Positions 9,541 to 64,000 of a stretch of DNA of 64,000 nt are shown here, piece by piece. Position 1 is the first letter of the stretch, and each line of letters starts with the position of its first letter. The notes below the pieces were generated by a model, which made no database searches, had not been told where the DNA came from, and saw only the letters and a list, made by a program, of their open reading frames with translations. Location: assembly GCA_039028735.1 (NCBI GenBank), contig JBCCHQ010000001.1:4585-68584 (forward strand), given 5' to 3'. The stretch is from Planctomycetota bacterium (GTDB taxonomy: Bacteria; Planctomycetota; UBA8108; UBA1146; JAJFFE01). Position numbers and translations under genes: made by a program.

Positions 9541-12500
9541 CTAGGGACAGGCACCGTTGTTGGTGCAACCGAGAGGCACTCCAGTCGAATCGATGCCGCA
9601 CTGCGGGAACGGCGGAGGCATCGATCCCCCGCCAAAGAGGAACGTCAACGCAGAGACCGCGTCGGCGATGTCCAAAGAGCCAGAGTCGTTGACGTCGTTG
9701 GCCTCGAGACACCTCGTAACTGACCCGTTGAAGAGATACGTCAAGATCGCGATCGGATCGGCAACGTTGACCGTGCCGTCGATGTTGGCATCACCCCGGA
9801 TGAACAGAGTGCCCAAGGAAACGGTCACCGGCGCAGTCGCTCCACCAACATTCAAGTTCGGACTCATATCACGGGCGAGCGCGATGTACGTACACGTCGC
9901 GCTTCCAGGAAGGCCCGTGTCGACATAGTAAGGACTCTGCTGCCAGCCGCTATCATTGCCTGGGCCGCTGGTGCATTGGAACGAGTACTCGACTGCGCTC
10001 GGGTCCGACGCCGTGACCGCACGCATTTCGAACGAGTTGCCGCCCAACGCTGTCGGCGCCAGATCCCATTGCAACGGGTTTGGCGTGGGTGGGACCACAT
10101 CGGAATCTCCTTGGATGGGTCGCTGTACCCGCCCCGCCGCATACAGACCAAGCACTTCTCCGGGTGCCAAAGCCCGCGACCAAATGGCCACCTCATCGAT
10201 CGCGCCTCCAAAATCGCGATTCCCGAAGCCAGGATCGCGCCCGATCACAAGATCCGTGTCGAACGCTTCGGGCAGGTGAGTGGCACCGCGCACGACCGAC
10301 GTCCCGTTGCGATAGATCGTCGCCTGTGTCGGTTCGATCACGAGCGCGACATGACACCACTCTCCGTCCGGGATCTCCAAACCCGAGTCCCATCCCCATT
10401 GCCCACCGTCCCAGTGATATCGCAATTCATGGTGGCTCCCGAGATTGAGCCCCGTGGTCGTCGATCCCCCACGCCAGAACACGATCCCGTTCGTACCCGT
10501 CTGGGCACCATCCCTGCGCACCCACGCAGAAATCGTCAACGTGTTCGTGTTCAACACGAACGGGTTCGTTTCGACCATGTCGTCGATCCCGTCGAGATCC
10601 ACGCCCCCCGCCACCTGTCCCGCAACGAAAACGGGCCCGTTCATCAAGAGTCCATGGCGCAGTGGCGGTGGCGATTGATCGAGAACTAGCGTGCCGATCG
10701 TGTCCGCAACGTCGAAAGTATAGTGGACGAGCAATCCCTGCTCGTAGCCGTCGCTGCCGGTCGTGAAAGTCCACGGCTCTCCGTCCAGCACGGTACCGTC
10801 CCCCAGGACCGTGTCGACCTGCCACGTGTAGGTCGTTTGCGCCGGCAGCAACGGCATCGGATGCAGTGCATCGGCTCCGTGACGGCCACGGTACTCCGGC
10901 GACGTACGCGTTGCTGCAGCGACCGTCGCCGCGTCGGTCCCAAAGTAGACGTCATGCTGCGCAACGGTGAAACCAGGCGACCACGACAACACCGGGTGCC
11001 GCGGGGCGCTGTTGTCGAGCTGCTGCGGTGCCGGTGCATCGGCAGCTCCTCCGGCCGCTACTTGCGCCACTTGCGCCGCTGTCATCGAGTAAGAATAGAT
11101 GCGCACATCATCGACTGCACCACCAAAGAAGCGCGTACTGTTACTCGAGTCTTGCCCGATCCGCAGCGTGCCGTCGAAGGCTTCCACAGCATGAGCCGTC
11201 GAGTTCATCGCCACCTGCATCGGCGCTCCCGGTCCCGGCTGCATGTAGATGCGGCCGGCGTTCGGCGTCACAACGAGAGCAACGAACGTCCACTGTGCAT
11301 CGGGGAGCGCCAACCCCGAGTTCCAGGACCACTGCCCACCGTCCCAGTGATAACGCAGTTCATTGCCTGTACCGAGATTCAGACCTGCCACCGTCGACCC
11401 ACCACGACAGAATACGAGACCGGCCCACTGGTTCTGCGGACCTGACCGCCGTACCCACGCAGTGATGGTGACACGGTTGGTATTCAAGTTCGGCGCCGAC
11501 ACCTCCACGACATCGTCGACACCGTCGAGTTGCAGACCGCCACCGTAGACAGCGGCGACGCTGTCCGTTGCAAAGTCCACGCCACCTACCAAGGTGCCTG
11601 GTCCGCTGGCGACCGTCTCGTTTGCAGCGATACTGCCTGTAGTCTCATCGAGGCGCCAATGACCTGCGAGCTGTTGCCGCTGCACGTTCACGGCCACGCG
11701 CGCGGTGCTCATCAACACGCCGTCGCTGATCGTGTAGTCAAAGGAGTCGTTGCCAGCGAACCCAGTCGTGGGAGGCGTATAGATCACCTGATCGAAACCA
11801 CCAGTGCCGGTACCCGCAGAGATAACGACAGTCCCTCCCTTGGCGGATGTTGCATCGACAGCAGATACCAGAATCGGATCGCAGTTGCCGTCATGATCGT
11901 TGTCGAGTACGTCGATCGCAAATCCCACACCGCTGACGATCTGCATCTCATCGAGAAACAGCTCGTCCAACTTCGCAAAAGGCGGCAGCGCCGTTGGGTG
12001 CGCAGGCAGACTGTCCAGGCAAGTGCGCGACGCCATGTGCGCACGCTTCACATCCAGCGTACGCGGACCGATGCTGAGACATGCGCCGCACATGTTGTTG
12101 CACGGCGAGGTGTCCAAGCAATGCCCAGCCCCCCAGTTGTGGCCGACTTCGTGACCGATGATACCCGCCGAGTCGAGGCTCCAGCCGTACATCGAATTCG
12201 TACAAACGACCCCAACCCAGGCCAAGCCGCCATATCCAGATAGGTTGGACTTGTTCGTCATCAAGTGGCCAACGTCCCGCGTGATCGCCGTCTGGTTCGC
12301 ATTCCATTCGGCGCGGAACTGATTCAACAAATCGCCGCCACTGATGTCTGAGTAGAACGCAACGCTGCGGACAACAACACCTGTTAGAAGGTACGTGACC
12401 ATCAAGTCGCGGTTGTAGTAGAAGTCCACATCGTTGAGCAGCGCCTCCACGCGATCGGTCGTCTGCAGCACGGTGCCGCCTTGTTGCGTGAAGTATTCGA

Positions 12501-13098
12501 AGTCGCAGTCGAAAGCGATCTCGCAGCGCGTCATGCCGCACAGGTTTGGCGCGACGCCGCCGAACGGCTGCGCACCCGATCCCTGCACTGCGTTCGTCGT
12601 CGCCGCCGCGACCCCGCACTGAAACTGAACTCGACCGGGCGTGAAGACCACGTGCTGCCCGCGTGGTGCTGTGGCGATGAAACGGCGCGCTGGCTCGATC
12701 CGCACCGTCGCCACGGAATCTGCGTGCACTGCCGCCCGCAGGCCATGATCACTGAAACTCGCAACGACCACAGCGTCCGGCAGGTGCGTGACGATTCCGC
12801 GATACGTGCGCGGCGCCGGCAGCGGCATCGCGACAGTCTGGCCCCCCGCCCCGTATACGGATGCCTGCAGCCCCGCAGCTCGCATCGAATAGCGAGTCAA
12901 CTGTAGCTCGTAGGCGCTGCCACGCATCGGCACCGAGACTCTGACCTTGTCTGCTTCAGCAGGAAGCTGCAACTGCACTGTTTGGTAACTGCGTGTGCCC
13001 CACTCCGTTTCGAGACCATCGGCAATCGGGTCAGCCGCACGGACGTGCGATGCGACGAGCAGAAGACTGAGAAGAAACAGTAGGCGGAGACAGGTCAC
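9541..13098 (-). CDS. Large secreted multidomain metzincin metalloprotease with two LamG (concanavalin-like) domains and a C-terminal Cys-containing dockerin-like module
   Basis: The track starts at TTG 13152; GTG 13098 with a GAGGAAG RBS is preferred. There is a signal peptide. HEVGHNWGAGHC is the HExxHxxGxxH zinc site. A cadherin/Big-like segment is present. The two LamG_3 repeats each end in ...GGAIDxV.IY/W...A..V. The tail is RGDANIDGTVN...ACP-stop. Confidence 0.8.
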   Translation of the reverse strand: MTCLRLLFLLSLLLVASHVRAADPIADGLETEWGTRSYQTVQLQLPAEADKVRVSVPMRGSAYELQLTRYSMRAAGLQASVYGAGGQTVAMPLPAPRTYRGIVTHLPDAVVVASFSDHGLRAAVHADSVATVRIEPARRFIATAPRGQHVVFTPGRVQFQCGVAAATTNAVQGSGAQPFGGVAPNLCGMTRCEIAFDCDFEYFTQQGGTVLQTTDRVEALLNDVDFYYNRDLMVTYLLTGVVVRSVAFYSDISGGDLLNQFRAEWNANQTAITRDVGHLMTNKSNLSGYGGLAWVGVVCTNSMYGWSLDSAGIIGHEVGHNWGAGHCLDTSPCNNMCGACLSIGPRTLDVKRAHMASRTCLDSLPAHPTALPPFAKLDELFLDEMQIVSGVGFAIDVLDNDHDGNCDPILVSAVDATSAKGGTVVISAGTGTGGFDQVIYTPPTTGFAGNDSFDYTISDGVLMSTARVAVNVQRQQLAGHWRLDETTGSIAANETVASGPGTLVGGVDFATDSVAAVYGGGLQLDGVDDVVEVSAPNLNTNRVTITAWVRRSGPQNQWAGLVFCRGGSTVAGLNLGTGNELRYHWDGGQWSWNSGLALPDAQWTFVALVVTPNAGRIYMQPGPGAPMQVAMNSTAHAVEAFDGTLRIGQDSSNSTRFFGGAVDDVRIYSYSMTAAQVAQVAAGGAADAPAPQQLDNSAPRHPVLSWSPGFTVAQHDVYFGTDAATVAAATRTSPEYRGRHGADALHPMPLLPAQTTYTWQVDTVLGDGTVLDGEPWTFTTGSDGYEQGLLVHYTFDVADTIGTLVLDQSPPPLRHGLLMNGPVFVAGQVAGGVDLDGIDDMVETNPFVLNTNTLTISAWVRRDGAQTGTNGIVFWRGGSTTTGLNLGSHHELRYHWDGGQWGWDSGLEIPDGEWCHVALVIEPTQATIYRNGTSVVRGATHLPEAFDTDLVIGRDPGFGNRDFGGAIDEVAIWSRALAPGEVLGLYAAGRVQRPIQGDSDVVPPTPNPLQWDLAPTALGGNSFEMRAVTASDPSAVEYSFQCTSGPGNDSGWQQSPYYVDTGLPGSATCTYIALARDMSPNLNVGGATAPVTVSLGTLFIRGDANIDGTVNVADPIAILTYLFNGSVTRCLEANDVNDSGSLDIADAVSALTFLFGGGSMPPPFPQCGIDSTGVPLGCTNNGACP

Positions 13099-13265
13099 AG
13101 GGACTTCCTCTCGAGTTGTAGGCAATGCAGAAAGAGCCTCGAGTGCATGCAATCAGGTAGTGAACCGACAGCGGCGGCGCGAACGCCAGCGAACGGCTGC
13201 GCAAGCACTGGCACCATGATAGCGCGCATTGGCACAGCCACCAGGTTGGATCGACGATCGAACCC

Positions 13266-22293: not shown

Positions 22294-25200
22294 TCATGGG
22301 CACGGCGAGCTACTACACGTGAGGGTGTCTGCTGTCGGATCGACCGCGCACAAACCATGCGGAGCTGGCGGAGAGGCGCCACCGGAGAACAACGCCGACA
22401 ACTTGTACACAGCGTCGCCAATATTGTTCTGTCCGTCATCGTTGGCGTCACACGCGTCGGCACACGTAGGCGTCGTGCCGCTAGCGAACAAGAACGTTAG
22501 CAAGAACACCGGATCGCCAATGTTGAACGTACTGTCGCCGTTGCAGTCGCCACGATCGAAGCTCGGCTGTGCGGGCCCGCACTCATCGGGAACACCGTTA
22601 CCGTCGCCGTCCAGGGAGTACCCATTCGCGATGTCGCAAGAGTCGAGCACGCCGTTGCTGTTGCAGTCGAACTGCGCTCCCACAGCCAACTCGCAAGCAT
22701 CGAGGATGCCGTTGCCATTGCAATCATTGCCGGCCAACTGACAAACATCGGGCACGCTGTCGTTGTTGCAGTCGGTCATTACACCGGTTGCGAAGTCGCA
22801 CGAATCAGGAATACCATTGCTGTTGCAGTCTGCCTCCAGTGCGACCTGACTCGTGTTGCGGTGGATCGCGACGCCGCTCCCTGAGAACGCGCTGGCCAAG
22901 GCAATGTCGATACGACCATCAGCGTCGTAGTCTGCAGCGTCCAACCGCGAGTAGCTTACCGAACCGCCGACGTATGGCTCTGGAACAAACGCGCCCGCAC
23001 CTTGGTTCAGCATGACGCCGACCGTGGATCCAGCTAGATCGGGGCGGCCATCGCTGTCGAAGTCGCCGACTACCAGCTCTACCGGAGCGGCACTCCCTGG
23101 CAAGAGCACCGACGTGAAAGCACCGCCACCGTCGTTGCTAAGGAGTGCGACTGCAGTGCTCCCACCGGTGGCAATGTCGTAGTCACCGTCAAGATCCGCA
23201 TCGATAGCGACCAGCGTTTCTACGGGCTGTCCAACCGCAGTGATCTGAGGTGCTCCAAACACACCGCCTCCTTGGTTGAAGAACGTTCGCACCTCGGAAG
23301 AGCGCCCGACGCAAAGGTCAACAAGGCTATCGCCGTCGAAATCCTCTGCGATAACCCACCGTGGGATCGAGCCAGTCGCGTAGTCGACTCGTGTGAAAGA
23401 AGATCCAGCACCATCATTGAGCAGCACCGAAACGTTGGCATGCCAGAAGTTCGCGGTCACAAGATCCAGTGCACCGTCGCCATCGAAGTCCCCGGCCGCC
23501 ATCGACCTGGGTGTGCTCCCCACCGTCGTCCCAGATCCGAGACTGAAGACACCTGTACCATCGTTCAAGAGCAGGACGACTGTCGATGAGTAGCCGCCAG
23601 CGACATCGATATCTCCGTCGCCGTCAAAGTCACCGGCAGCCAGTGTGTCGATACCGTTGACAAGATGAATCACGTTGATTGTCGACACGAAGGTGCCGTC
23701 ACCGTTGTTCAACGCAACGTGTAACGGGACAGTCTGGTTGGTAGCCATCACTACGTCGAGATCCCCGTCGCCATCGAAGTCTGCCGTCGCAATGTCGTTG
23801 GCTAGCCCCGCCGGCTGGATCGGAATCAAGTGATGAAACTCGAACTGCAGCAAGCGAGACTCGACATCGCAGTCATCAGGGCGGCCGTTTCCGTTGCAGT
23901 CTTGACTGCTGCCGCTACTGAGATCGGTCGCGTCGTGCACGCCGTTCTGGTTGCAGTCTGCCAGCAGGATCGCCTCGACCGTGTCGATCATGCCGTGGCC
24001 TACTTGTGACGTTGAGCCCGCTACGGGCACTGCGGTCGTCGTCAACACAGCTCGCAGCTGCGCAGGCGTAATGCCAGGTATGGCTTCGATGATCAGAGCA
24101 GCAGCCCCGGACGCCGCCGGCGCCGCCATGCTCGTGCCCCACTGCACGTAGTAGTCGGCTGCACCAGTACCGTAGTTGCTGTCGTTGTCGATCAAGAAGT
24201 CGGGATCCGGGAAGCCAGCAAAGGTGCCAGAGTCCTTGCACGAGATCGTCACACTGCCGGGCGCCACGAGATCGGGTTTCGCTGCACCGTCGATGCGTGG
24301 CCCTTGACCGCTAAACGGTGCTAACGTGCCGACGACCATCCAGTCGAACCAACGCGGAAGACCATCGGAACGCGTCCACGAAGTTCGCTGTGTCCAACAG
24401 CCGATGGTGATGGCGTCGTCAGCGGTTCCCGGGTGGTTCAGGGTATACTGCGGGTCTGGCACGTCGAACGTAGCCAGACTCCAGGTACTGGGATTGAAGA
24501 CGTGAACCAGCGGTGTTTGCCCGGAAAGCGCGGCGTTCGTGATCGTGAAGCTGTAGGTTCTCGACGCACCGACCGCGAGCGGCGTGATATTGAGAAAGTA
24601 CTGCTGTGCCTCAGTGCCACGGCTACTGGTACCGGTCCAGTGCACCCCCGCTGCGGGAACGGTGCCGGTCAATGTTCCCAGCGTCTCGCCGGGGAGCAGG
24701 TTCGTACAGATCAACGTCATGTTGCTGTCGCTAACGCCATCTTGCCAGATGAGCCGCAGATCTTCAGACGGTGTGTACGGGAAACCGCTCGTGTTGTTGA
24801 TCGTCAAAGTAAACGCTGCTGATGTCGAGTTTGGTGCGACCGTCATTGAGGCGTGCTTCGCGACGTTGCCATCATTGCCAGCGGCGACAAAGCATGTCAT
24901 CCCGCTCGCAGTCGCGGCATCGATCGCCTGGCACACGAGAGACGAGCCGTCCATGTACGTGTGGACGCCACCGTAGCTCAAGTTGTAGATGTGGCAGCCA
25001 ACGAACAGCGCGCGGTTGATCGACTCGATGATGTCGGTATCAGACGCAAATGCTGTGACGTCGTCACCGATCTTGTAGAAGTGCAAATCCGCACCGGGGG
25101 CAACACCGGTGTGAATCCCCGAAGACACGACACCACTTCCGAGCACAGTACCGGTGACATGGGTACCGTGGGCCATCACCGTATTGGTCACGGTCGTAGA

Positions 25201-25902
25201 CCAGGCACCCGGGCCCGCGCCCGCGTGCGTCCCCGTTGTCATGTCGAAAGCTTCGGTCGGCGTTGGGAAGTCCAAGTGCGTGAGATCGATCCCACTATCG
25301 GCAACAGCGACCTTGACCCCAGTACCATCGCGCGGCAGCGTTTCGATGCCCAGAGACACATCCCACGCCCGCATCATCTTTCGGGCTTCGAAATTCAAAG
25401 GTGCACTCCACTGCTCGGCCGACACCACAGAAACTACGAGCGGGTGCGCTTCCAGGTAGTTCAGCCGGCTGTAAGAAACCGTGGCGAGATAAAACCCGAA
25501 CGGATGCTTGCCGACGACAGGCGGAACCCACCCGGTCGGATGCAACTGCACGCCAGCCGTGGTCATCGCGAGCCACTCGGGGCCAAGCAGCGGTCGCGTC
25601 ATGTAGATTCCGACTTGCTCGGTCGTCGGATCTCCACGGTGAACGGCTGCAACCGGCGCCGAAGCTTGCGGCGTGCTCGCGAAGTTCCACGCGTTCCGGT
25701 CGTTGCGAGTCGCCTCGGCGCGGCCACCCTCGGCGCCATCCAGGGGCGCAGCCTCGACTGCGTTCTTGATCCGCTGGTGCCCATAGATGACGTCGCAAAT
25801 CTTGCCGTCAGCCGACGCCTCAGTCACAAACAGCACGATCCCCACGAACGCGACGGCGCGCGCCCAATTTCGCCGGGACTGAATCGTCAAAGAGTTCTTC
25901 AT
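22294..25902 (-). CDS. Secreted subtilisin-like serine protease (S8) with FG-GAP/VCBS repeats and a C-terminal Cys-containing dockerin-like module
   Basis: ATG 25902 with a GGAGGAG RBS and a signal peptide. The catalytic triad context is VAVADSGID, HGTHVTGTV, GTSMAAPAASG. Multiple DFDGDGDLDV/GDFDGDG FG-GAP loops are present. The tail is RGDCNGDSTFN...SPCP-stop. Confidence 0.85.
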   Translation of the reverse strand: MKNSLTIQSRRNWARAVAFVGIVLFVTEASADGKICDVIYGHQRIKNAVEAAPLDGAEGGRAEATRNDRNAWNFASTPQASAPVAAVHRGDPTTEQVGIYMTRPLLGPEWLAMTTAGVQLHPTGWVPPVVGKHPFGFYLATVSYSRLNYLEAHPLVVSVVSAEQWSAPLNFEARKMMRAWDVSLGIETLPRDGTGVKVAVADSGIDLTHLDFPTPTEAFDMTTGTHAGAGPGAWSTTVTNTVMAHGTHVTGTVLGSGVVSSGIHTGVAPGADLHFYKIGDDVTAFASDTDIIESINRALFVGCHIYNLSYGGVHTYMDGSSLVCQAIDAATASGMTCFVAAGNDGNVAKHASMTVAPNSTSAAFTLTINNTSGFPYTPSEDLRLIWQDGVSDSNMTLICTNLLPGETLGTLTGTVPAAGVHWTGTSSRGTEAQQYFLNITPLAVGASRTYSFTITNAALSGQTPLVHVFNPSTWSLATFDVPDPQYTLNHPGTADDAITIGCWTQRTSWTRSDGLPRWFDWMVVGTLAPFSGQGPRIDGAAKPDLVAPGSVTISCKDSGTFAGFPDPDFLIDNDSNYGTGAADYYVQWGTSMAAPAASGAAALIIEAIPGITPAQLRAVLTTTAVPVAGSTSQVGHGMIDTVEAILLADCNQNGVHDATDLSSGSSQDCNGNGRPDDCDVESRLLQFEFHHLIPIQPAGLANDIATADFDGDGDLDVVMATNQTVPLHVALNNGDGTFVSTINVIHLVNGIDTLAAGDFDGDGDIDVAGGYSSTVVLLLNDGTGVFSLGSGTTVGSTPRSMAAGDFDGDGALDLVTANFWHANVSVLLNDGAGSSFTRVDYATGSIPRWVIAEDFDGDSLVDLCVGRSSEVRTFFNQGGGVFGAPQITAVGQPVETLVAIDADLDGDYDIATGGSTAVALLSNDGGGAFTSVLLPGSAAPVELVVGDFDSDGRPDLAGSTVGVMLNQGAGAFVPEPYVGGSVSYSRLDAADYDADGRIDIALASAFSGSGVAIHRNTSQVALEADCNSNGIPDSCDFATGVMTDCNNDSVPDVCQLAGNDCNGNGILDACELAVGAQFDCNSNGVLDSCDIANGYSLDGDGNGVPDECGPAQPSFDRGDCNGDSTFNIGDPVFLLTFLFASGTTPTCADACDANDDGQNNIGDAVYKLSALFSGGASPPAPHGLCAVDPTADTLTCSSSPCP

Positions 25903-26158
25903 GGTGCTCCTCCGTTTCGGAACGCACAACAGCTCAGGAGCAAGCCCACCATTGCTCTATCCTGCATAGAGGCCCCGGGGGCGTCTCTGACAAACTTGTG
26001 CGAGAAAACGAGAAGACAGGGCGCCTTCGCCGAGCGCGAGAACACAAGGCGCGCGAAATCAGTGACTTAGCCCGACGGCAGCAAAGCTCCACACGACGTC
26101 GGTCCACGCTGATCCAGCGATTCTGCCCCCCTTCGGAGCACCTCGGGGGGTACCATGC

Positions 26159-39793: not shown

Positions 39794-39856
39794 AAGATCC
39801 TGTCCTTCCAAAGGCAACAGTCTCTATCACAGTTACAGTTTATGCACCAAAAAATG

Positions 39857-40297: not shown

Positions 40298-40313
40298 GGG
40301 CGCTCTCCTTCCA

Positions 40314-40342
40314 CTAACCGTAACATACACAGTTACGGTTAG
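40314..40342. promoter_or_regulatory. Perfect 11-bp inverted repeat with a 7-bp spacer (CTAACCGTAAC-ATACACA-GTTACGGTTAG), candidate Rrf2 operator
   Basis: It sits 17-45 nt upstream of the Rrf2 GTG. A near-identical half-site CACAGTTACAGTT lies at 39827-39839 in the Rrf2-RND spacer. Confidence 0.5.
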
Positions 40343-40428
40343 CGGCGGCAAGGCAAATCCGGGAAAAGAGCTGTAAGACGCGGTGGCGATTGGCCTCGCG
40401 GTGCCCACGACTCTGCAGGTCATTCAGT

Positions 40429-41406
40429 TCAGGGGCAGGGGGTGTAAGCCGCGCAGTGGAGGGCGTCGACGGTTGGGTCCCAGCCGCACGTCGACGGCCC
40501 AACCAGCGGAATGGTCGGCGAGCCAAACAGCGCGTTCAGCAGCGCGATCACGTCGACGAGGTTCAACCCCCCATCGTCGTTGCCGTCGCAGGCATCGTCG
40601 CAATCGATCGGCGGCGGCGTCGTCTGCGGGAACAGATTGCCCAATAGGACGATCGCATCGCTGAGGCTAAAGCTCCCGTCCCCACTGCAATCGCCTCGCA
40701 CGAACTCAGGCGCCGTTGTGTCTATGATCAAGTCGTCGAACACAAACGTATTGTCAGTGCCTAGCTCGATGATCTCGACGCGCTTGATGCCAATGCCCGC
40801 AGTCACGCTGAGTGGTGCAAAGACCATCGTCGTCACCGTCGCGCTGGCCAATTCAAAATCATTCTCATCGTAGGCGCGCATCTCGAACGTCGCGGGGGAC
40901 TGCCCACCCGCCACCGAGATCGTCACACCGCTGACCGGCATGTCGAAGTGGATTTGTTGCGGGTCTGTCGGCAGATGCCCGTTCGAGAAGTTGGCCTGGC
41001 GGTTGAACGCAAGAAAATTGCTACCGCTTTGGGCTGGCACACCGAAGCTGGAACCATCATTGAGGATGCCGCCTCCGGTGCCGGTAGCGAAGCCGCTGAA
41101 GTGCACTCCCCAAGCCGAGTAGGTCTCGGTCAGGGCGGTCGTCGAGCTGAAGTTCACGGGTGCAACGATCGGCAGTCCGCTGGCATCGACATCGAAGTTG
41201 ATGACAACCGGTCCCGCGCCAGGAGCAACCGTCGCGAGGGCAATGGCCATCGCGAGAGTGACAACGGCGAGTGTCCCTGGTTGCAGAGGCCTGAATAATC
41301 GGAGCCAGCATGATGGGAGCCAGAATAATCGCAGACTGCGTACTGGGAGCCTGCGCAATGACTGCTTGCCAACTGCCCACTTCACGAAAGAACGGATCGG
41401 CGGCAT
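40429..41406 (-). CDS. Secreted protein of unknown function with a C-terminal Cys-containing dockerin-like module
   Basis: ATG 41406 has a strong GGAGAGGAG RBS. The signal/h-region is near LAVVTLAMAIALATVA, so the true start may be further downstream. The central beta-rich domain is unassigned. The tail is FVRGDCSGDGSFS...CDDACDGNDDGGLN...TPCP-stop. Confidence 0.6.
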   Translation of the reverse strand: MPPIRSFVKWAVGKQSLRRLPVRSLRLFWLPSCWLRLFRPLQPGTLAVVTLAMAIALATVAPGAGPVVINFDVDASGLPIVAPVNFSSTTALTETYSAWGVHFSGFATGTGGGILNDGSSFGVPAQSGSNFLAFNRQANFSNGHLPTDPQQIHFDMPVSGVTISVAGGQSPATFEMRAYDENDFELASATVTTMVFAPLSVTAGIGIKRVEIIELGTDNTFVFDDLIIDTTAPEFVRGDCSGDGSFSLSDAIVLLGNLFPQTTPPPIDCDDACDGNDDGGLNLVDVIALLNALFGSPTIPLVGPSTCGWDPTVDALHCAAYTPCP

Positions 41407-41534
41407 CGATCCTCTCCTCTCCCCACAACCACCGCTCCAGTATCGCGCGAACCCGCACGATCTCAAGCATGGCGTCGGGTCAGCGCTGACAAACCGGCAA
41501 CCCAGATTATTGTTAGTATTTGGGAGCGTGGGGT

Positions 41535-58708: not shown

Positions 58709-61021
58709 GTGCGCGCAGTGGATGTTGAGCTCGAGCAGTTGCTTTCAGAGTTCATTGAGCGCCGTGATCGTGGCGAAGCGTTGACTGCAGACGCCTTCTG
58801 TCGCGAGCACCCCCACCGCGGCGAACAACTCAGAGACGCACTCCGCGCTTTCGAGTCCACCAGCGAGATGTTTCCAGATCGCATCGCTACGCCGCAGCGA
58901 ATCGGTCGCTATGAAGTCCTCGAGACGCTGGGGCGCGGCGGCCTTGGTGTTGTCGTGCGCGCCCGCGATCCCGAGTCTCCCGACACAGACGTCGCGTTGA
59001 AGCTGCTGCAACCGGGCGCTCTCGTGAACGCTCGCGCGAGGGAGCGCTTTCGCCGCGAGGGTGAGGCACTGCAACGCGTTTCGCATCCGAACGTCGTTGG
59101 CGTCCGAGAGGTCGGTGACGACAACGGTCAGCCGTTCCTAGCTATGGAATTGATCGAGGGGCGCTCACTCGCGGATTGGATCGACGACTTCCGCCACACC
59201 TCGTCGACCGAGCTCGAAGCACGGGCGCTTCCCGGGAGTGGCTCCGGGATGCAGCGGGTGTTGCACGCAATGATCCCTCTTGTCGAGGCAGTCGCCACGC
59301 TGCACGGCGACGGCATTCTGCATCGAGACTTGAAACCACAGAACGTGATCCTGCGCGACGACGGTACACCAGTGCTCGTCGACTTCGGCCTGGCTGGCGA
59401 TGACGAAGTGGCCACCATGACTCGCACAGGTGATGTCATGGGCACACTCGCATACATGCCCCCCGAACAAGCCCGCGGTGAGCGCGTGGATGAACGCGCC
59501 GACATCTACGGGTTGGGTGCCATCTTGTATGAACTGGTCACACTGCAGCGACTGCATGCCACGGCTGACTCAGTGAATCTGCTCCAAGCGGTCACGCAGA
59601 AGGGACCAAGGCCCGGCAGTCACCTGCCGCCCGACACTCCAGCATCGCTACGCCGCGTCCTCTACCGTTGCTTGGCCTTCCAGCCCAAGAATCGCTACGC
59701 AGATGTCAACGACCTGCTTGCCGACCTACTTGCACTCCGGGAGAGTGCGCCCGTGCGGGCTGCCGCAGCCGGTCCGATGGAGCGCACCCACGATTGGATC
59801 CGGCACAACACACGCGCGGCTCTCGGAGTAGGTGTTACGGGTGCGCTGCTACTGGTGGCAGCGATCTGCGCAGCGTTCTTTCAGGTCGCTGCCACCCGCG
59901 ACGCGAAGTTCGTGCGACTTGGCGACGAAGCGACGATCGCCTGGGTGCGGGGCGCCTTCGACGCCGCGCGGTCGCATGCGATCGAAATGCAGGATCTGCG
60001 TCCCGATGATCCGTTGCCGGACTTCTTCCTTTCGGAACCAGCAGGCGCTACCGCAGGAAACGCGCCGGTAAGAGCTGGGTATGCGCAGCTGCGAGAAGCT
60101 ACGGCACTGTTTGCAGCCAGAGAATACCCCGCCGCCATGGCGCAGGCTGAAGCGGCGCGGCGCGCCCTCCCGGATTGGGCGCTCCCACCAGTCGTGATCT
60201 CTCGAATTGCCTACAAGATGCGTGATCGAGATCGCGCGGCACGGGAACTGTCGATCGCTGTGGGACTGCTGCCGGCGTCTGCACAGATCCACCACGAACT
60301 TGCAACCGTGCTCTATCGGCTCAGAGACCACGAGGGCAGCATTCGCTCATCGCGTGAGGCCACGGAGCGCGCGCCTCACGTTGCCGACTACTGGATACAG
60401 CTATCGAAGGTCTGCCTGCGACTCTCGCTTCAAGAGGAAGGGCTTGCCGCCGCGCAGAAGGCGGCCACGCTTGGCAGCGAAGGTGAACGTTCCAAGGGAC
60501 TGCAAGCCCTTGGTGTCTTTCTAGACGCGACTGGCGAGCACGAGAAGGGCCTCGAGATTCTCCTCGATCTGTACCAGCGCAACCCCAACAGTCGCAACAT
60601 CTGTTTCAGCGTCGGCCTGATCTACGATCGACTCGAACAGCACAAGAAGGCACTGGAGTTTTATGAACGTTCGATCGAGATCAAACCAACAGAGTGTGAA
60701 GGGCGACTCAGCGTCGCCAACATCTATGCCGGAGCGAATCGAGAGAACTGCGCCGACTGCGAAGCCTTCTTCGCTGCCAATCCAGAGTACCTCGATTTCG
60801 ACAAAGCTACTGACCTGTGCCGCGAAGCCCTGGATATCGATCACGGCAACTCAACAGTCGTCGTGAAGACGTTGGTCGATGTGATGGCAAACATGGGAAA
60901 GCTGGACGAGGCAATCTCGTGGCTGCAGGCTGAACGCGACCAAGCAACGCGAGATCAACAGATCGTGAATCTGCAACGCGGCATCCAGCAAGCCAACAAG
61001 CTGAAAGCAATCTCCCAATGA
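58709..61021 (+). CDS. Ser/Thr protein kinase with a TM segment and C-terminal TPR repeats
   Basis: GTG start. Kinase motifs are LGRGGLGVVV, ALKLL, HRDLKPQNVIL, DFGLAGD. The TM segment is ALGVGVTGALLLVAAICAAFF. TPR repeats follow. Confidence 0.8.
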   Translation: MRAVDVELEQLLSEFIERRDRGEALTADAFCREHPHRGEQLRDALRAFESTSEMFPDRIATPQRIGRYEVLETLGRGGLGVVVRARDPESPDTDVALKLLQPGALVNARARERFRREGEALQRVSHPNVVGVREVGDDNGQPFLAMELIEGRSLADWIDDFRHTSSTELEARALPGSGSGMQRVLHAMIPLVEAVATLHGDGILHRDLKPQNVILRDDGTPVLVDFGLAGDDEVATMTRTGDVMGTLAYMPPEQARGERVDERADIYGLGAILYELVTLQRLHATADSVNLLQAVTQKGPRPGSHLPPDTPASLRRVLYRCLAFQPKNRYADVNDLLADLLALRESAPVRAAAAGPMERTHDWIRHNTRAALGVGVTGALLLVAAICAAFFQVAATRDAKFVRLGDEATIAWVRGAFDAARSHAIEMQDLRPDDPLPDFFLSEPAGATAGNAPVRAGYAQLREATALFAAREYPAAMAQAEAARRALPDWALPPVVISRIAYKMRDRDRAARELSIAVGLLPASAQIHHELATVLYRLRDHEGSIRSSREATERAPHVADYWIQLSKVCLRLSLQEEGLAAAQKAATLGSEGERSKGLQALGVFLDATGEHEKGLEILLDLYQRNPNSRNICFSVGLIYDRLEQHKKALEFYERSIEIKPTECEGRLSVANIYAGANRENCADCEAFFAANPEYLDFDKATDLCREALDIDHGNSTVVVKTLVDVMANMGKLDEAISWLQAERDQATRDQQIVNLQRGIQQANKLKAISQ

Positions 61022-62376: not shown

Positions 62377-63780
62377 TTAGGGACAGCCGTAGCCCGTACA
62401 GGACATACTGTCGGCGGTCGGATCAGCACCGCACGCGCCCACGGGCGCTGGCGGGTTCGCTCCTCCGGCGAAGAGGTTCTCGAGCATGTAGACAGCGTCG
62501 GTCAAGTTGACAGTGCCGTCGTCGTTACCGTCGCACGCGTCGTCGCAAGCGAGAGGGCCTGCGCCTCCAAAGAGGTTGCCGAGTACTGCCAGCGGATCGC
62601 CGAGGTTGTAGTTGCCGTCACCGCTGCAGTCGCCACGGACGAAGAACGGGCCACCCGGAACGAGCGTCACGTTGCCGTCGTTGCGAAGCACCGGAACCGT
62701 GGCGCCGGCGAAATCGATGGCGACGAGGTTCTCGATCGCAGGCGTACCCAGCGACGACTTCCAGTCGAGCTCAGTTGTCGTTGGGGTCGTCGTTCCCTGC
62801 AGATTGGCTGCGTTCGTCGCGTAGTCGATGCTGACGGCTTCGGACGCAACGTCGAAAAGCACGACCTCGGCTGCACTAGCGAGCGAGTAGACAGCGCCAA
62901 CCGTGATCCCGTTCGGGAGCGTGTTGACGCTGAAGAACTCCGGACCCGCTCCCGCATTCAACGCAGCCAGCCCAGCACCTGCGCTGGCACCGGTGGCGGA
63001 CAGTACGTCTTCGTCGTGACCCAACGCCATCGAGAAGCCGTGCGTTGCGTTCGGGAAGTTGGGGCTGCCAGCATCTTCGGAGACAGCAACACCGACCGTG
63101 AACGTCGCGTCGCCACTGGAGGAATCGAAACCCTGCGTCACGTCGGGGAGGCTGAACGTGTACAGAGGTCCGTTGATACCAATGACGATCTCGCCGTCTT
63201 GGGTCGTCGGCTCAACCGAGTTTCCGTTCTGGAAGATCAGTTCGCTGCGAGTCGGTGGAACCCCCAACGTATCGCAGTACTCGAGGTCGGCCGTACCAGC
63301 CTGCCCGAGAACTTCATAGTCGATATCGAGCAGCTCGTAGCCGGCTCCGGCGGGCAGCGTCAAGATGCCGAAGATGTCACGAATCACGCCGGTAGCAACG
63401 CCGTCGGCGAACAGGGAAATCGAACCGAAGCCACCGGGTCCACCCATTGGGTTCTGGTTCGACGGTGGCCCGACCAACGCATCCGCACCGAGTACAGCGT
63501 CATCGATCGTCACCAGCGCCGGGTCGTGACAAATGCTAAACGACCAACCCAAGACTTCGTCCATACCCGCCGTGCTGTCGAGCTTTGCCGTCGTCGAGAC
63601 GATGTCGCCGGTGAAACCAAAGCCGTCATCCACCGACAGAATGTAGTCCGGACTCGGCGGGCCACCGGTGCCCGGCGTGCCACCGGTGCCACCACCGGGA
63701 ATGCCAATCGTACCGTTCTGCGCCACGGCAAGCGTGGGCGCCAGAAGACCAAGAGCAACTGCCATGAGGGCGCGCTTCAT
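62377..63780 (-). CDS. Secreted protein of unknown function with a C-terminal Cys-containing dockerin-like module
   Basis: ATG 63780 (MKRALMAVALGLLAPTLAVAQ signal) is preferred over the track start 63984. A Gly-rich linker follows. The ~350 aa beta-rich domain is unassigned. The tail is FVRGDCSGDGNYN...CDDACDGNDDGTVN...GYGCP-stop. Confidence 0.65.
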   Translation of the reverse strand: MKRALMAVALGLLAPTLAVAQNGTIGIPGGGTGGTPGTGGPPSPDYILSVDDGFGFTGDIVSTTAKLDSTAGMDEVLGWSFSICHDPALVTIDDAVLGADALVGPPSNQNPMGGPGGFGSISLFADGVATGVIRDIFGILTLPAGAGYELLDIDYEVLGQAGTADLEYCDTLGVPPTRSELIFQNGNSVEPTTQDGEIVIGINGPLYTFSLPDVTQGFDSSSGDATFTVGVAVSEDAGSPNFPNATHGFSMALGHDEDVLSATGASAGAGLAALNAGAGPEFFSVNTLPNGITVGAVYSLASAAEVVLFDVASEAVSIDYATNAANLQGTTTPTTTELDWKSSLGTPAIENLVAIDFAGATVPVLRNDGNVTLVPGGPFFVRGDCSGDGNYNLGDPLAVLGNLFGGAGPLACDDACDGNDDGTVNLTDAVYMLENLFAGGANPPAPVGACGADPTADSMSCTGYGCP

Positions 63781-64000
63781 TAGAGTTCCTTTCGCGGGCA
63801 CCAACCGCAGTTGGGCCATACCAAGATAGAGGGATACAGTCGTCGAGCCCGGCACAAACGCCGCTCGACGCACGCTCACCCAAGGCATGCCGCTGGCAGC
63901 TCTGGGGTGACAGGATCCCTCAGCATTTCTGTTTGTTCTTAACTCATGGTTCGTCACTGCCATTACGGACACGCCACTTCGCAATCGGGCAACGGGTCGA

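What the first reader, a model, noticed from the sequence alone, without database searches (positions are those of the whole stretch)
62380..62643. Recurrent ~85-90 aa Cys-containing, dockerin-like C-terminal module ending in Cys-Pro-stop on four unrelated large secreted proteins
Four genes in this 64-kb window share this tail; see the features table for the four calls. The tail positions are 9544-9801, 22297-22560, 40432-40705 and 62380-62643. All four end with the same architecture: F-x-R-G-D-(C/A)-x-G-D-(G/S)-x-x-N-x-x-D as the first Ca-loop, then a hydrophobic helix ending LF; then (C)-x-x-x-C-D-x-N-D-D-G-x-x-N-x-x-D-A-V-Y-x-L-x-x-L-F as the second loop and helix; then a Pro-rich stretch (PPAP); then C-x(5-10)-C-x(3-4)-C-P-stop. 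This is two dockerin-type EF-hand-like repeats plus a terminal Cys-rich extension. The cysteines covary. The metalloprotease lacks both the loop-1 Cys and the second Cys of the CxxxC pair, which suggests those two pair as a disulfide in the others. The module is always the extreme C terminus. The catalytic or unknown cargo domains are unrelated. That is the hallmark of a protein-sorting or anchoring tag (cf. PEP-CTERM, T9SS CTD, LPXTG) or of a cohesin-binding dockerin used for surface display. It may correspond to one of the recently defined dockerin-like C-terminal anchor families used in NCBI annotation, but I cannot verify this without an HMM search. A cognate cohesin-like receptor or processing enzyme would be expected elsewhere in the genome.
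Basis: seen in the sequence. Interest (0 to 1): 0.8.

Follow-up and report, generated by a model that had tools for sequence, protein, structure and literature searches.

The report
Disulfide-stapled dockerin tag with planctomycete cohesins
Four (plus a fifth, cut) secreted proteins of an uncultured marine-type Planctomycetota genome end in the same ~93-residue calcium-binding dockerin module stiffened by up to three disulfides, and one of them also carries the matching cohesin 'socket' domains, which points to a large, non-cellulose-degrading protein-docking system that has so far only been guessed at.

Summary
Four minus-strand genes end in a homologous ~93-aa tail finishing Cys-Pro-stop, and the last 11 codons of a fifth lie at the window edge. 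The tail is a true dockerin: its profile hits solved type I dockerins (E 2e-6), an AlphaFold model (pLDDT 93) matches only dockerins, and both Ca2+ loops keep their ligands. It also has a conserved C-terminal extension with no solved counterpart. No NCBIfam anchor model matches, and Pfam Dockerin_1 is sub-threshold for the window copies.

The tail is not a terminal sorting signal. Family-wide, about 17% of modules are N-terminal, internal or tandem, and no transmembrane or basic tail follows.

The expected partner is in the window. Protein A (62377-63780) is signal peptide, two divergent cohesins, then the dockerin. Every complete protein with this cohesin also ends in the dockerin, often in tandem gene arrays.

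Cargo is diverse (M12B, S8, M4 and trypsin-like proteases, oxidases, FG-GAP) and includes no cellulases. The family is very large (28,106 clusters at E<=1e-10) and almost confined to uncultured Planctomycetota.

It fits and extends the untested 2019 'planctosome' idea. Binding itself is inferred, not shown. It is a new variant of a known kind.

The parts
62380..62658 (-). Dockerin module of protein A, 93 aa, 6-Cys class, ending C-P-stop (TAA at 62377-62379). This is the tail named in the finding.
63166..63660 (-). Cohesin-like domain 1 of protein A (aa ~41-205; motif LGWSFSICHD)
   Evidence: Homologous to the domains lying between dockerins in Doc-X-Doc proteins, E 1e-17 to 1e-6. X-domain profile hits PDB cohesins, E 7e-5. 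AF2 pLDDT 80-93, and the Foldseek top 50 are all cohesins, best E 8.5e-7.
62647..63165 (-). Cohesin-like domain 2 of protein A (aa ~206-378), a divergent repeat of domain 1
   Evidence: Hit by the X-domain profile at E 1.6e-7 although it was not used to build the profile. Weak d1-d2 similarity. Poorly modelled by AF2.
62377..63780 (-). Protein A, 467 aa: signal peptide (MKRALMAVALGLLAPTLAVAQ), Gly-rich linker, cohesin-like x2, dockerin. 100% identical to the NCBI protein with locus tag AAF581_00235 from a Planctomycetota MAG.
9544..9819 (-). Dockerin module of protein B, 92 aa, 4-Cys class (lacks C11 and C42), ending C-P-stop
   Evidence: HMM E 2.1e-41; alignment
9541..13152 (-). Protein B, ~1185-1203 aa: signal peptide, M12B reprolysin-like metallopeptidase, Big_9/cadherin-like domain, 2x Laminin_G_3, dockerin
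   Evidence: Pfam; translation
22297..22575 (-). Dockerin module of protein C, 93 aa, 6-Cys class, ending C-P-stop
   Evidence: HMM E 6e-45
22294..25902 (-). Protein C, 1202 aa from the ATG: signal peptide, Peptidase_S8 subtilase, FG-GAP/VCBS repeats, Cys-rich CxxxxGxxD repeats, dockerin
   Evidence: Pfam; translation
40432..40719 (-). Dockerin module of protein D, 96 aa, 6-Cys class, ending C-P-stop
   Evidence: HMM E 3.9e-45
40429..41466 (-). Protein D, up to 345 aa (start uncertain): hydrophobic N-terminus, ~170-aa domain with no Pfam match, dockerin
63963..63998 (-). Last 11 codons plus stop (DPLPDCEVACP*) of a fifth tagged gene. It is an FG-GAP repeat protein whose body lies beyond the window. 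4-Cys class.
   Evidence: Logan contig L001 overlaps the window end and carries the full tail. In-frame translation.

Best explanation
The tail is a divergent, disulfide-stapled dockerin. It has two Ca2+-binding loop-helix repeats, as in type I dockerins, followed by a conserved Pro-rich linker and a ~25-residue C-terminal clasp (G-x-D-P-T-x-D-x-L-x-C...C-P). The clasp is pinned to the core by an almost universal disulfide (C38-C87). Many copies add a second disulfide (C76-C92) and a third (C11-C42).

The proteins are exported by N-terminal Sec-type signal peptides. Outside the cytoplasm the module most likely plugs, in a Ca2+-dependent way, into the divergent cohesin domains (motif GWSFGVCHD) carried by proteins such as protein A of this window.

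Every complete cohesin-bearing protein found also ends in the same type of dockerin. Some are enzyme-Coh-Doc or Doc-Coh-Doc. The likely product is therefore a self-linking, non-cellulolytic extracellular assembly that gathers proteases, oxidases and adhesin-like repeat proteins, rather than a classical one-scaffold cellulosome. This is a 'planctosome'-like system.

Shown here: dockerin and cohesin homology and fold, conservation of the Ca2+ ligands, paired gain and loss of the cysteines, the coupling of cohesin and dockerin in one polypeptide, cargo diversity, and the taxonomic range.

Inferred, not shown: the actual cohesin-dockerin binding, the disulfide connectivity, an extracellular location, and polymerisation.
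For: Dockerin identity:
- Profile of 87 tails against PDB sequences: best hits are all dockerins (2y3n_B E 2.4e-6, 2mte_A, 1daq_A), covering profile positions 32-90.
- AF2 model pLDDT 93.2, pTM 0.85.
- 69 of 87 tails hit Pfam Dockerin_1, best E 5.5e-9.
- Ca2+ ligands in 621 modules: position 1 D 98%; position 3 N/D 93-95%; position 5 D 82-90%; position 12 D 99%, in both loops.

Disulfides:
- Cys patterns fall into three classes: C38+C87 only (224), plus C76+C92 (153), plus C11+C42 (148). All other patterns occur 13 times or fewer.
- Fisher p 9e-111 for C11/C42 and 2e-141 for C76/terminal Cys.

Cohesin partner:
- Protein A domain 1 is homologous to the domains lying between dockerins.
- The X-domain profile hits cohesins in the PDB: 2vn5_A E 7e-5, 1g1k_A, 3kcp_A, 5lxv_A, 4uyp_A, 4dh2_A, 1ohz_A.
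- 8 of 17 X domains hit Pfam Cohesin, the only family hit by more than one member.
- The AF2 model of protein A gives cohesins as the top 50 Foldseek matches, best E 8.5e-7.

Coupling:
- 34 of 35 cohesin ORFs in dockerin-seeded genome loci also carry the dockerin.
- 52 of 57 do in cohesin-seeded metagenome loci. All exceptions are cut by contig ends or frameshifted.
- Tandem arrays reach 7 Coh-Coh-Doc genes.

Cargo:
- 59 Pfam families in 72 tagged proteins, none cellulolytic.
- Large cohesin-bearing proteins are M4 and trypsin-like proteases.

Prior hypothesis of the same kind, with M12B peptidase cargo: PMC6461901.
Against: - No binding data and no complex model. AF2-multimer was not available and coordinates were not exposed, so neither the cohesin-dockerin interface nor the Cys-Cys distances could be checked.
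- From general knowledge of dockerin structure, the two Ca2+ loops lie at opposite ends of the helix pair. C11-C42 proximity is therefore not self-evident and rests on covariation alone.
- The window copies score below the Pfam gathering thresholds for both Dockerin_1 (17.6-18.1 against 22.9; tail D has no hit) and Cohesin.
- Cohesin domain 2 is poorly modelled.
- No cell-anchoring protein (a cohesin without a dockerin, or SLH/LTD-type modules) was found, so attachment to the cell is unexplained.
- Dockerins on cohesin proteins and on cargo look the same. This fits self-assembly, but it equally fits a dockerin whose partner is something other than these cohesins.
- The covariation p-values ignore phylogenetic relatedness.
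Confidence: 0.65

Rival explanations
1. The tail is a dockerin-fold, Ca2+-binding, disulfide-rich module that does not bind the cohesin-like domains. It might instead bind a cell-surface glycan, an outer-membrane or S-layer-like component, or simply stabilise secreted proteins in oxic, Ca2+-rich water. On this view the cohesin-like domains are just another beta-sandwich cargo or spacer.
For: - Binding was not tested.
- No anchor protein was found.
- Poly-dockerin proteins with 5-13 tandem modules and no cohesin exist: P0108, P0106, P0123.
- Dockerins on cohesin proteins and on cargo are indistinguishable.
- Many non-cellulosomal dockerin-like modules have no known partner (general knowledge; Peer et al. 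2009, cited in PMC6461901).
Against: - Cohesin-fold and dockerin modules are coupled in essentially 100% of complete cohesin-bearing ORFs, in two independently seeded samples. That is hard to explain if they are functionally unrelated.
- Both domains are specifically homologous to the two halves of a known high-affinity pair.
- The Ca2+ ligands and the symmetric [IL]-[AS] pair at loop positions 10-11 are conserved, as in cohesin-binding dockerins.
Confidence: 0.22
2. The tail is a C-terminal sorting or secretion signal, analogous to the T9SS CTD, PEP-CTERM or LPXTG. A dedicated translocon or transpeptidase would recognise it, remove it or covalently attach it, with Cys-Pro-stop as the recognition motif.
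For: - It is C-terminal in all 5 window genes and in 83% of modules in the genomic loci.
- Cys-Pro is the commonest ending: 86 ORFs, and 156 of the 356 C-terminal modules.
- The cargo is very diverse and there are many tagged genes per genome, as with known sorting tags.
Against: - 17% of modules in the genomic loci, and most of the top database hits, are N-terminal, internal or tandem.
- C-P occurs internally, followed directly by another module.
- No transmembrane helix or basic tail follows.
- The fold is a helical dockerin, not the beta-sandwich of the T9SS CTD.
- No NCBIfam sorting-signal model matches.
- No candidate processing enzyme lies near any of the four genes.
- The terminal Cys behaves as half of a structural pair, not as a free motif residue.
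Confidence: 0.08
3. The similarity is a compositional or low-complexity artefact (Asp/Gly/Pro-rich ends in a GC-rich genome), or the result of recent gene conversion. It would then not be a functional module.
For: The window is 61.7% GC, and the tail is rich in G, D, P and A.
Against: - HMM E-values of 1e-41 to 1e-45 with no other hit in six frames.
- Tens of thousands of homologues with position-specific conservation.
- A confident fold prediction.
- DNA identity among the tails is only 51-59%.
Confidence: 0.01

Closest known systems
Type I dockerin modules of clostridial and ruminococcal cellulosomes (Pfam PF00404; e.g. PDB 1ohz_B, 2vn5_B, 4uyq_B, 5m2o_B)
   Same: - Two tandem loop-helix (F-hand) repeats with Ca2+ ligands at loop positions 1, 3, 5, 9 and 12.
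- Near-symmetrical repeats.
- Usually at the C-terminus of secreted enzymes.
- Cohesin modules are encoded in the same genome.
   Different: - A ~30-residue conserved C-terminal extension (Pro-rich linker plus a GxDPTxDxLxC clasp) that no solved dockerin covers.
- One to three inferred disulfides. Classical dockerins come from anaerobes and, to my knowledge, lack them.
- An invariant F-x-R-G-D lead-in.
- The window copies fall below the Pfam threshold.
- The host is an aquatic Gram-negative-type Planctomycetota.
- The cargo is proteases, oxidases and repeat proteins, not glycoside hydrolases.
The hypothetical 'planctosome' of freshwater Planctomycetes (Andrei et al., ISME J 2019, PMC6461901)
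   Same: - A cohesin/dockerin system in Planctomycetes that does not fit the cellulosome model.
- Proposed to assemble peptidases, explicitly including M12B reprolysin-like enzymes, which is the cargo type of the window's protein B.
- Adaptor proteins that carry both a dockerin and a cohesin.
- Purely in silico.
   Different: - That model has an LTD-anchored protein with P-domains and one cohesin, plus an adaptor of signal peptide-Doc-HYR-Coh. No LTD anchor or HYR adaptor was seen here.
- The cohesin carriers here are SP-Coh-Coh-Doc, Doc-Coh-Doc and protease-Coh-Doc, often in tandem gene arrays.
- The passages of that paper that were read mention none of the following: the Cys-stapled extension, the nested disulfide classes, the obligate Coh+Doc fusion, the size of the family (tens of thousands of clusters), or the broad non-protease cargo.
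Adaptor scaffoldins and clasped dockerins of Ruminococcus flavefaciens and Acetivibrio (e.g. the ScaA dockerin 'intramolecular clasp', PMC3821032; type II X-dockerins)
   Same: - Proteins that carry both cohesins and a dockerin, so that complexes are built hierarchically.
- Extra structural elements that stabilise the dockerin by contacts between its ends.
   Different: - In those systems stabilisation is non-covalent (clasp residues or an N-terminal X module), and distinct dockerin types enforce a hierarchy.
- Here stabilisation is apparently covalent (disulfides) and C-terminal. Dockerins on cohesin carriers and on cargo share one consensus, so no hierarchy is evident.
C-terminal sorting domains (T9SS CTD, PEP-CTERM, LPXTG)
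   Same: A short shared module at the end of many otherwise unrelated secreted proteins, with many copies per genome.
   Different: - Different fold and no transmembrane or basic tail.
- Not strictly terminal.
- No associated processing enzyme found.
- No model match.

Membership tests
Dockerin (type I-like; Pfam PF00404) | Two tandem ~22-residue loop-helix repeats with Ca2+-ligand residues at loop positions 1, 3, 5, 9 and 12 | tested here: met
   All four window tails have D-x-[NS]-x-D...D followed by D-x-N-D-[DS]-G...D. In 621 modules the ligand positions are 80-99% conserved in both loops.
Dockerin (type I-like; Pfam PF00404) | Significant sequence similarity to established dockerins | tested here: met
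   The family profile against PDB sequences gives dockerins as top hits, E 2.4e-6 to 1e-3. 69 of 87 tails hit Dockerin_1, best E 5.5e-9.
Dockerin (type I-like; Pfam PF00404) | Score above the Pfam gathering threshold (22.9 bits) for the window copies themselves | tested here: not met
   17.8, 18.1 and 17.6 bits for tails A, B and C; no hit for tail D. This is an operational cut-off. Relatives in the same family pass it.
Dockerin (type I-like; Pfam PF00404) | Dockerin three-dimensional fold | tested here: met
Dockerin (type I-like; Pfam PF00404) | Ca2+-dependent binding to a cohesin | not testable with these tools
   No complex prediction or experiment was possible. Supported only indirectly, by co-occurrence.
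Cohesin (Pfam PF00963), for the two N-terminal domains of protein A | Cohesin beta-sandwich (jelly-roll) fold | tested here: met
   Met for domain 1: pLDDT 80-93, and the Foldseek top 50 are all cohesins, best E 8.5e-7, TM ~0.55-0.61 normalised to the target. Domain 2 is too poorly modelled to judge by fold. It matches the X-domain profile at E 1.6e-7.
Cohesin (Pfam PF00963), for the two N-terminal domains of protein A | Significant sequence similarity to established cohesins, or a score above the Pfam threshold | tested here: inconclusive
   The X-domain profile hits PDB cohesins at E 7e-5 to 1e-2, covering mainly the N-terminal half. 8 of 17 X domains hit Pfam Cohesin, best E 1.7e-4, all apparently below the 24.1-bit threshold. 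Protein A domain 1 alone gives no hit.
Cellulosome | Dockerin-bearing subunits are mainly plant-cell-wall glycoside hydrolases, and the scaffoldin has a CBM | tested here: not met
   The window cargo is M12B and S8 peptidases, FG-GAP and unknown. 72 tagged proteins from other genomes show 59 Pfam families with no cellulase among the 25 most frequent. No CBM was found on cohesin carriers.
Cellulosome | An anchoring scaffoldin (cohesins plus SLH or sortase signal) that ties the complex to the cell | tested here: not met
   None was seen in the window or in 104 related loci. All complete cohesin ORFs end in a dockerin. Whole genomes could not be scanned.
'Planctosome' (Andrei et al. 2019) | Cohesin and dockerin modules in a Planctomycetes genome, with dockerin-tagged M12B-type peptidases | tested here: met
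   Protein B is Reprolysin_5/4/3 plus the dockerin. Protein A carries cohesins. The source is a Planctomycetota MAG. The model is described.
'Planctosome' (Andrei et al. 2019) | An LTD-anchored protein with P-domains and a cohesin, and an adaptor of signal peptide-Doc-HYR-Coh | tested here: not met
   These architectures are absent from the window and from the surveyed loci. P-domains occur as cargo in 5 of 72 proteins, and HYR in 1 of 87. No genome-wide test was possible.
C-terminal sorting signals (PEP-CTERM, LPXTG, GlyGly-CTERM) | A short motif followed by a hydrophobic transmembrane segment and a basic tail at the extreme C-terminus | tested here: not met
   The proteins stop directly after C-P with no hydrophobic stretch. 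No NCBIfam sorting-signal model hits at E<=10.
T9SS C-terminal domain | A ~80-100-aa beta-sandwich CTD, strictly C-terminal, matching the TIGR04183/TIGR04131-type models | tested here: not met
   The fold is helical. There is no NCBIfam hit. 17% of modules are non-terminal.
   The only weak hits are to the dockerin end of the CelK equivalog NF049990 (E 8e-4 to 0.19). No anchor model appears at E<=10.

The most novel reading that the evidence does not exclude
Every cohesin carrier also bears the same type of dockerin: Coh-Coh-Doc, Doc-Coh-Doc and protease-Coh-Doc, encoded in tandem arrays. The system may therefore be a self-polymerising 'plug-and-socket' network rather than a scaffold with passengers. 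It would be a covalently stapled, Ca2+-dependent extracellular protein matrix or coat, built by uncultured marine Planctomycetota, onto which a very large and varied secretome (proteases, copper and haem oxidases, adhesin-like repeats) is hung. The disulfide staples would be an adaptation of the anaerobe-type dockerin to oxic water.
Probability: 0.3. Interest if true: 0.8.

Novelty: new variant of a known kind. Interest (0 to 1): 0.6.

Why it matters
Cohesin-dockerin pairs are the classic high-affinity building blocks of cellulosomes in anaerobic Firmicutes, and they are widely reused in synthetic biology.

This work finds a very large, mostly unannotated branch of that system in aerobic or aquatic Planctomycetota: 28,106 clusters at 50% identity with E<=1e-10. 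It has three distinguishing features. The dockerin carries a covalently stapled extension. The cohesins are so divergent that Pfam misses them. The cargo has nothing to do with cellulose.

The finding turns the speculative 'planctosome' into something concrete and testable. Defined partner modules sit in one 467-aa protein, and four or five defined cargo proteins sit in one 64-kb stretch. It suggests how abundant but uncultured marine planctomycetes may organise extracellular proteolysis and oxidation on particles. It may also supply redox-robust, orthogonal docking pairs for protein engineering.

Practically, thousands of 'hypothetical proteins' could be annotated with two new profile models, one for the Cys-dockerin and one for the GWSFGVCHD cohesin.

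Tried and rejected
- Plus-strand translations of the four ranges are meaningless; the genes are on the minus strand.
- An exact-sequence look-up of protein C from its presumed ATG was not on record. The look-up of protein A gave only a 3.7-kb Logan contig. That contig did reveal the fifth tagged gene.
The narrower A1 and A5 were used instead, so both scans sample sub-families only (patterns F[VID]RGD.., C..A[CN]D.ND, and GWSF[GS][VI]CH).
- A local jackhmmer run from protein A's N-terminal part drifted by absorbing the adjacent dockerin sequence. It was redone after excising the dockerins.
- The AFDB50 fold library was unavailable. I could not ask whether cultured species or UniProt entries carry the extended fold.
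- Model coordinates are not exposed. I could not measure Cys-Cys distances, or see whether protein A's own dockerin packs on its cohesins.
- Peer et al. 2009 on non-cellulosomal cohesins and dockerins is not held.
- Literature searches for 'GC-type dockerin' and for disulfide-containing non-cellulosomal dockerins found nothing relevant.
- I tested for a type I / type II-like split between dockerins on cohesin carriers and on cargo. None was found.
- I looked for processing enzymes or anchors among the window's other ~40 genes. There are none; they are kinases, ECF sigma factors, an MMPL/LolA-like operon, MFS, Tex, RNase II and others.
- I considered stop-codon read-through or merged gene calls as the origin of the multi-module proteins. 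This was rejected because they have proper signal peptides and back-to-back modules without intervening cargo, and because the window genes use TAA, TAG and TGA.
Full report
**1. Checking the observation**

The four coordinate ranges make sense only on the minus strand. There they are the last ~90 codons of four long ORFs:
- A: 62377..63984, with the true start probably the ATG at 63780 (467 aa)
- B: 9541..13152
- C: 22294..25929
- D: 40429..41466

The four tails align without difficulty: 44-54% identity, 26 invariant columns, all ending Cys-Pro-stop. An HMM made from them finds exactly these four in the six-frame translation of the window (E 2e-41 to 3e-45), and nothing else scores better than E~1.

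The tails share only 51-59% DNA identity and use TAA, TAG and TGA as stops. They are therefore old paralogues, not a recent duplication, a gene conversion or a recoding signal.

A 3.7-kb public contig overlaps the right end of the window. It shows a fifth tagged gene, an FG-GAP repeat protein, directly upstream of A. Its last 11 codons plus stop (DPLPDCEVACP*) lie at 63963-63998 on the minus strand.

The cargo is unrelated between the genes:
- B: M12B reprolysin-like peptidase + Big_9 + two Laminin_G_3 domains
- C: S8 subtilase + FG-GAP repeats
- D: no Pfam match
- A: discussed in section 5

All four have hydrophobic, signal-peptide-like N-termini (by inspection).

**2. What the tail is**

Pfam Dockerin_1 scores the window tails just under threshold: 17.6-18.1 bits against 22.9, and nothing for D. 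NCBIfam release 20 has no anchor or sorting model that matches. It gives only weak hits to the dockerin end of CelK.

Homology to dockerins is nevertheless solid:
- A profile of 87 tails hits solved dockerins first (2y3n_B E 2.4e-6, 2mte_A, 1daq_A, and others), over profile positions 32-90.
- 69 of 87 family members hit Dockerin_1 individually, best E 5.5e-9.
- An AlphaFold2 model of the tail of protein A is confident: pLDDT 93.2, pTM 0.85, two long helices each preceded by a loop.

In 621 non-identical modules pooled from all sources, the Ca2+-ligand positions are highly conserved:

| Loop position | Loop 1 | Loop 2 |
|---|---|---|
| 1 | D 98% | D 98% |
| 3 | N 86% + D 7% | N 80% + D 15% |
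| 5 | D 90% | D 82% |
| 12 | D 99% | D 99% |

The two repeats are almost symmetrical, with [IL]-[AS] at positions 10-11 in both.

**3. The cysteines**

In the 621 modules the six Cys positions occur almost only in three nested patterns:

| Pattern | Modules |
|---|---|
| C38 + C87 | 224 |
| C38 + C87 + C76 + C92 | 153 |
| all six, adding C11 + C42 | 148 |
| any other single pattern | 13 or fewer |

The 2x2 tables are [[431,24],[7,158]] for C11/C42 (Fisher p 9e-111) and [[245,13],[4,319]] for C76/terminal Cys (p 2e-141).

These p-values ignore shared ancestry. Even so, gain and loss strictly in pairs is the signature of three disulfides:
- a core staple tying the extension to the linker before loop 2 (C38-C87)
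- a second staple within the extension (C76-C92)
- a third staple between loop 1 and the residue before loop 2 (C11-C42)

Window tails A, C and D are 6-Cys. B and the fifth gene are 4-Cys. Connectivity could not be checked geometrically because model coordinates are not exposed.

**4. Is it a terminal tag?**

Within the window, yes. Family-wide, no.

An exhaustive profile search of 1.84 billion cluster representatives gave 50,858 hits at E<=1e-3, 28,106 at E<=1e-10 and 2,324 at E<=1e-30. Canonical PDB dockerins score at most 30.5 bits with this profile. By my scaling, that would be E~0.02 in a library of this size. These counts are therefore essentially this family and not dockerins in general.

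The top-scoring proteins carry 2-12 copies. Full modules, extension included, occur in four settings:
- right after a signal peptide
- internally
- as back-to-back arrays (P0108 has five; P0146 has three)
- alternating with ~150-aa domains

In 80 genomic loci, 139 of 167 full modules end within 12 residues of the stop codon and 28 do not.

Cys-Pro is the commonest ending: 86 ORFs, and 156 C-terminal modules. It also occurs internally, immediately followed by the next module. Internal modules are mostly of the 2-Cys class, which lacks the last Cys.

Nothing hydrophobic or basic follows the motif. Together with the helical fold, this argues against a PEP-CTERM, LPXTG or T9SS-type sorting signal. 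Cys-Pro is simply the end of the folded domain.

**5. The partner is in the window**

The ~150-aa domains sandwiched between modules in Doc-X-Doc proteins carry a GWSFGVCHD motif. The same motif is visible in protein A (LGWSFSICHD).

After excising the dockerins, domain 1 of protein A (aa ~41-205) matches those inter-module domains at E 1e-17 to 1e-6.

Evidence that this X domain is a cohesin:
- A 17-sequence X-domain profile hits cellulosomal cohesins in the PDB: 2vn5_A E 7e-5, 1g1k_A, 3kcp_A, 5lxv_A, 4uyp_A, 4dh2_A, 6kgc_A, 1ohz_A.
- Pfam Cohesin is the only family hit by more than one X domain: 8 of 17, best E 1.7e-4, sub-threshold.
- The profile finds a second copy in protein A (domain 2, E 1.6e-7) that was not used to build it, and nothing else in the window.
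- In an AlphaFold2 model of full-length A, domain 1 is confident (pLDDT 80-93) while the rest is mixed (mean 65.6).
- Foldseek on that model returns cohesins as all of the top 50 matches: 1g1k_A E 8.5e-7, and also the non-cellulosomal Archaeoglobus cohesin 2xdh.

Protein A is therefore signal peptide + Gly-rich linker + cohesin + cohesin + dockerin. It is 100% identical to the NCBI protein with locus tag AAF581_00235, annotated as hypothetical, from a Planctomycetota MAG.

**6. Coupling and distribution**

A scan of one genome per species, seeded with the tail, gave at least 450 confirmed matches. The best 80 loci come almost entirely from uncultured Planctomycetota MAGs, many of them marine or aquatic, with up to 14 loci from a single MAG.

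In those dockerin-seeded loci, 34 of 35 cohesin-bearing ORFs also carry the dockerin. The exception is cut by the contig end.

Because that sample was seeded by the dockerin, I repeated the test seeded by the cohesin motif in metagenomes. There, 52 of 57 cohesin ORFs end in the dockerin. The other five are truncated or frameshifted. These genes often form tandem arrays of up to seven Coh-(Coh)-Doc paralogues.

Large cohesin carriers are proteases: M4 thermolysin-like or trypsin-like, followed by Coh(-Coh)-Doc. No SLH, LTD or OmpA-type anchor was seen.

Dockerins on cohesin carriers and on cargo share one consensus.

Cargo in 72 complete tagged proteins spans 59 Pfam families, with no cellulases among the 25 most frequent. 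They include:
- FG-GAP repeats
- proprotein-convertase P-domains
- galactose and glyoxal oxidases
- di-haem peroxidases
- GSDH
- beta-helix
- CHRD

The window's other genes are unrelated housekeeping and regulatory genes, and the tagged genes are scattered among them.

**7. Mechanism**

Best-supported reading, confidence about 0.65: Sec-exported proteins fold outside the cytoplasm, where the module binds two Ca2+ ions and forms one to three disulfides. The module then docks onto the divergent cohesins of proteins like A.

Each cohesin carrier has its own plug of the same type. The assemblies are therefore likely to be chains or branched networks that recruit proteases, oxidases and adhesin-like proteins.

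Shown here: homology, fold, ligand conservation, Cys pairing statistics, domain coupling, cargo and taxonomy.

Inferred: the binding itself, the disulfide connectivity, the location, polymerisation, and how the complex is held on the cell, since no anchor was found.

Rivals:
- a dockerin-fold module with a non-cohesin ligand, or a purely stabilising role (about 0.22)
- a true sorting signal (about 0.08)
- an artefact (about 0.01)

**8. Comparison with what is known, and novelty**

Cohesin-dockerin systems are well known. A non-cellulolytic 'planctosome' assembling M12B and M14 peptidases was proposed from genomes of freshwater Planctomycetes in 2019 (PMC6461901). It has remained an untested idea, mentioned in six papers in the library.

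The present system fits that idea. It even includes an M12B cargo enzyme. It differs in architecture: there is no LTD anchor and no Doc-HYR-Coh adaptor.

It adds features I found described nowhere:
- the conserved C-terminal clasp with nested disulfide classes
- cohesins below Pfam detection with a GWSFGVCHD signature
- obligate fusion of cohesin and dockerin
- tandem gene arrays
- a very broad non-protease cargo
- a family size of tens of thousands of clusters

I rate it a new variant of a known kind, interest about 0.6. It is not a new principle. It is a large, unannotated and experimentally tractable branch of an important protein-assembly system, in an ecologically abundant but uncultured group.

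Noticed in passing
window 63963-63998 (-), continuing beyond the window end; L001:3-998: A fifth tagged gene lies directly upstream of protein A on the same strand. It is an FG-GAP/VCBS repeat protein ending in a 4-Cys dockerin (…NCGMDLVIDPLPDCEVACP*). Only its last 11 codons plus stop are inside the window.
   Followed up: yes
P0108, P0146, P0106, P0174; P0123, P0127, P0131, P0138, P0165 (database proteins): Poly-dockerin proteins exist. Some have 3-7 complete Cys-dockerin modules back to back behind a signal peptide. Others have 9-13 core-only dockerin repeats; P0123, the one scanned against Pfam, also carries an S8 peptidase. Their role is unexplained. They could be multivalent cross-linkers.
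   Followed up: partly
L086 (7 genes), L095/L096 (5 genes), L085, L087, L088, L090, L092, L064: There are tandem same-strand arrays of paralogous Coh-(Coh)-Doc genes of ~435-670 aa. The arrangement repeats across several metagenomes, in a recurring order of ~437-, ~640-670- and ~445-aa members.
   Followed up: partly
P0079, P0084, P0086: One subfamily keeps the loop-1 Cys but lacks C42. It has instead a Cys in helix 1 (DAVCELNW / DAVCLLNW) and a Q-terminated end (…PPDCQ). This suggests an alternative disulfide partner.
   Followed up: no
L023, L026, L050 (JAFMMO01, labelled Proteobacteria); L038, L056, L070 and P0020 (QNYK01, labelled Bacillota): Two MAGs labelled as other phyla carry several Cys-dockerin and cohesin genes typical of Planctomycetota. 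They are probably mis-classified or contaminated bins, not evidence of a wider taxonomic range.
   Followed up: no
window 18983-21568 (+): An 861-aa ORF combines ECF sigma-70 regions 2 and 4 at the N-terminus with a long extension. The extension contains CarboxypepD_reg and dioxygenase-like beta-sandwich domains. This is an unusual sigma-factor fusion.
   Followed up: no
window 26755-28590 (+), 48717-52187 (-), 58709-61021 (+): Three Ser/Thr protein kinases with TPR arrays lie in the 64-kb window. One also has an NB-ARC/AAA STAND-type module. A second ECF sigma factor (26159-26758) sits directly upstream of the first kinase.
   Followed up: no
window 1324-5388 (+) and 13266-16166 (-): Two large ORFs lack the tag. 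One is 1354 aa with no Pfam match at all. The other is 966 aa with only a PNGase F C-terminal-like domain, and it lies next to tagged gene B.
   Followed up: no
window 35422-39817 (-): An apparent operon encodes an MMPL/RND-type transporter (799 aa), a LolA-like outer-membrane lipoprotein-sorting protein (269 aa) and a 397-aa protein with no Pfam match. An Rrf2-type regulator gene (39857-40423) separates it from tagged gene D. No link to the tag was found.
   Followed up: no
protein C, window ~22580-23000 (-): Just before its dockerin, protein C has a run of short Cys-containing repeats (DCNSNGIPDSCD, DCNNDSVPDVCQ, DCNGNGILDACE, DCNSNGVLDSCD, and others). They resemble single Ca2+-loop/TSP3-like units and were not analysed.
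   Followed up: no
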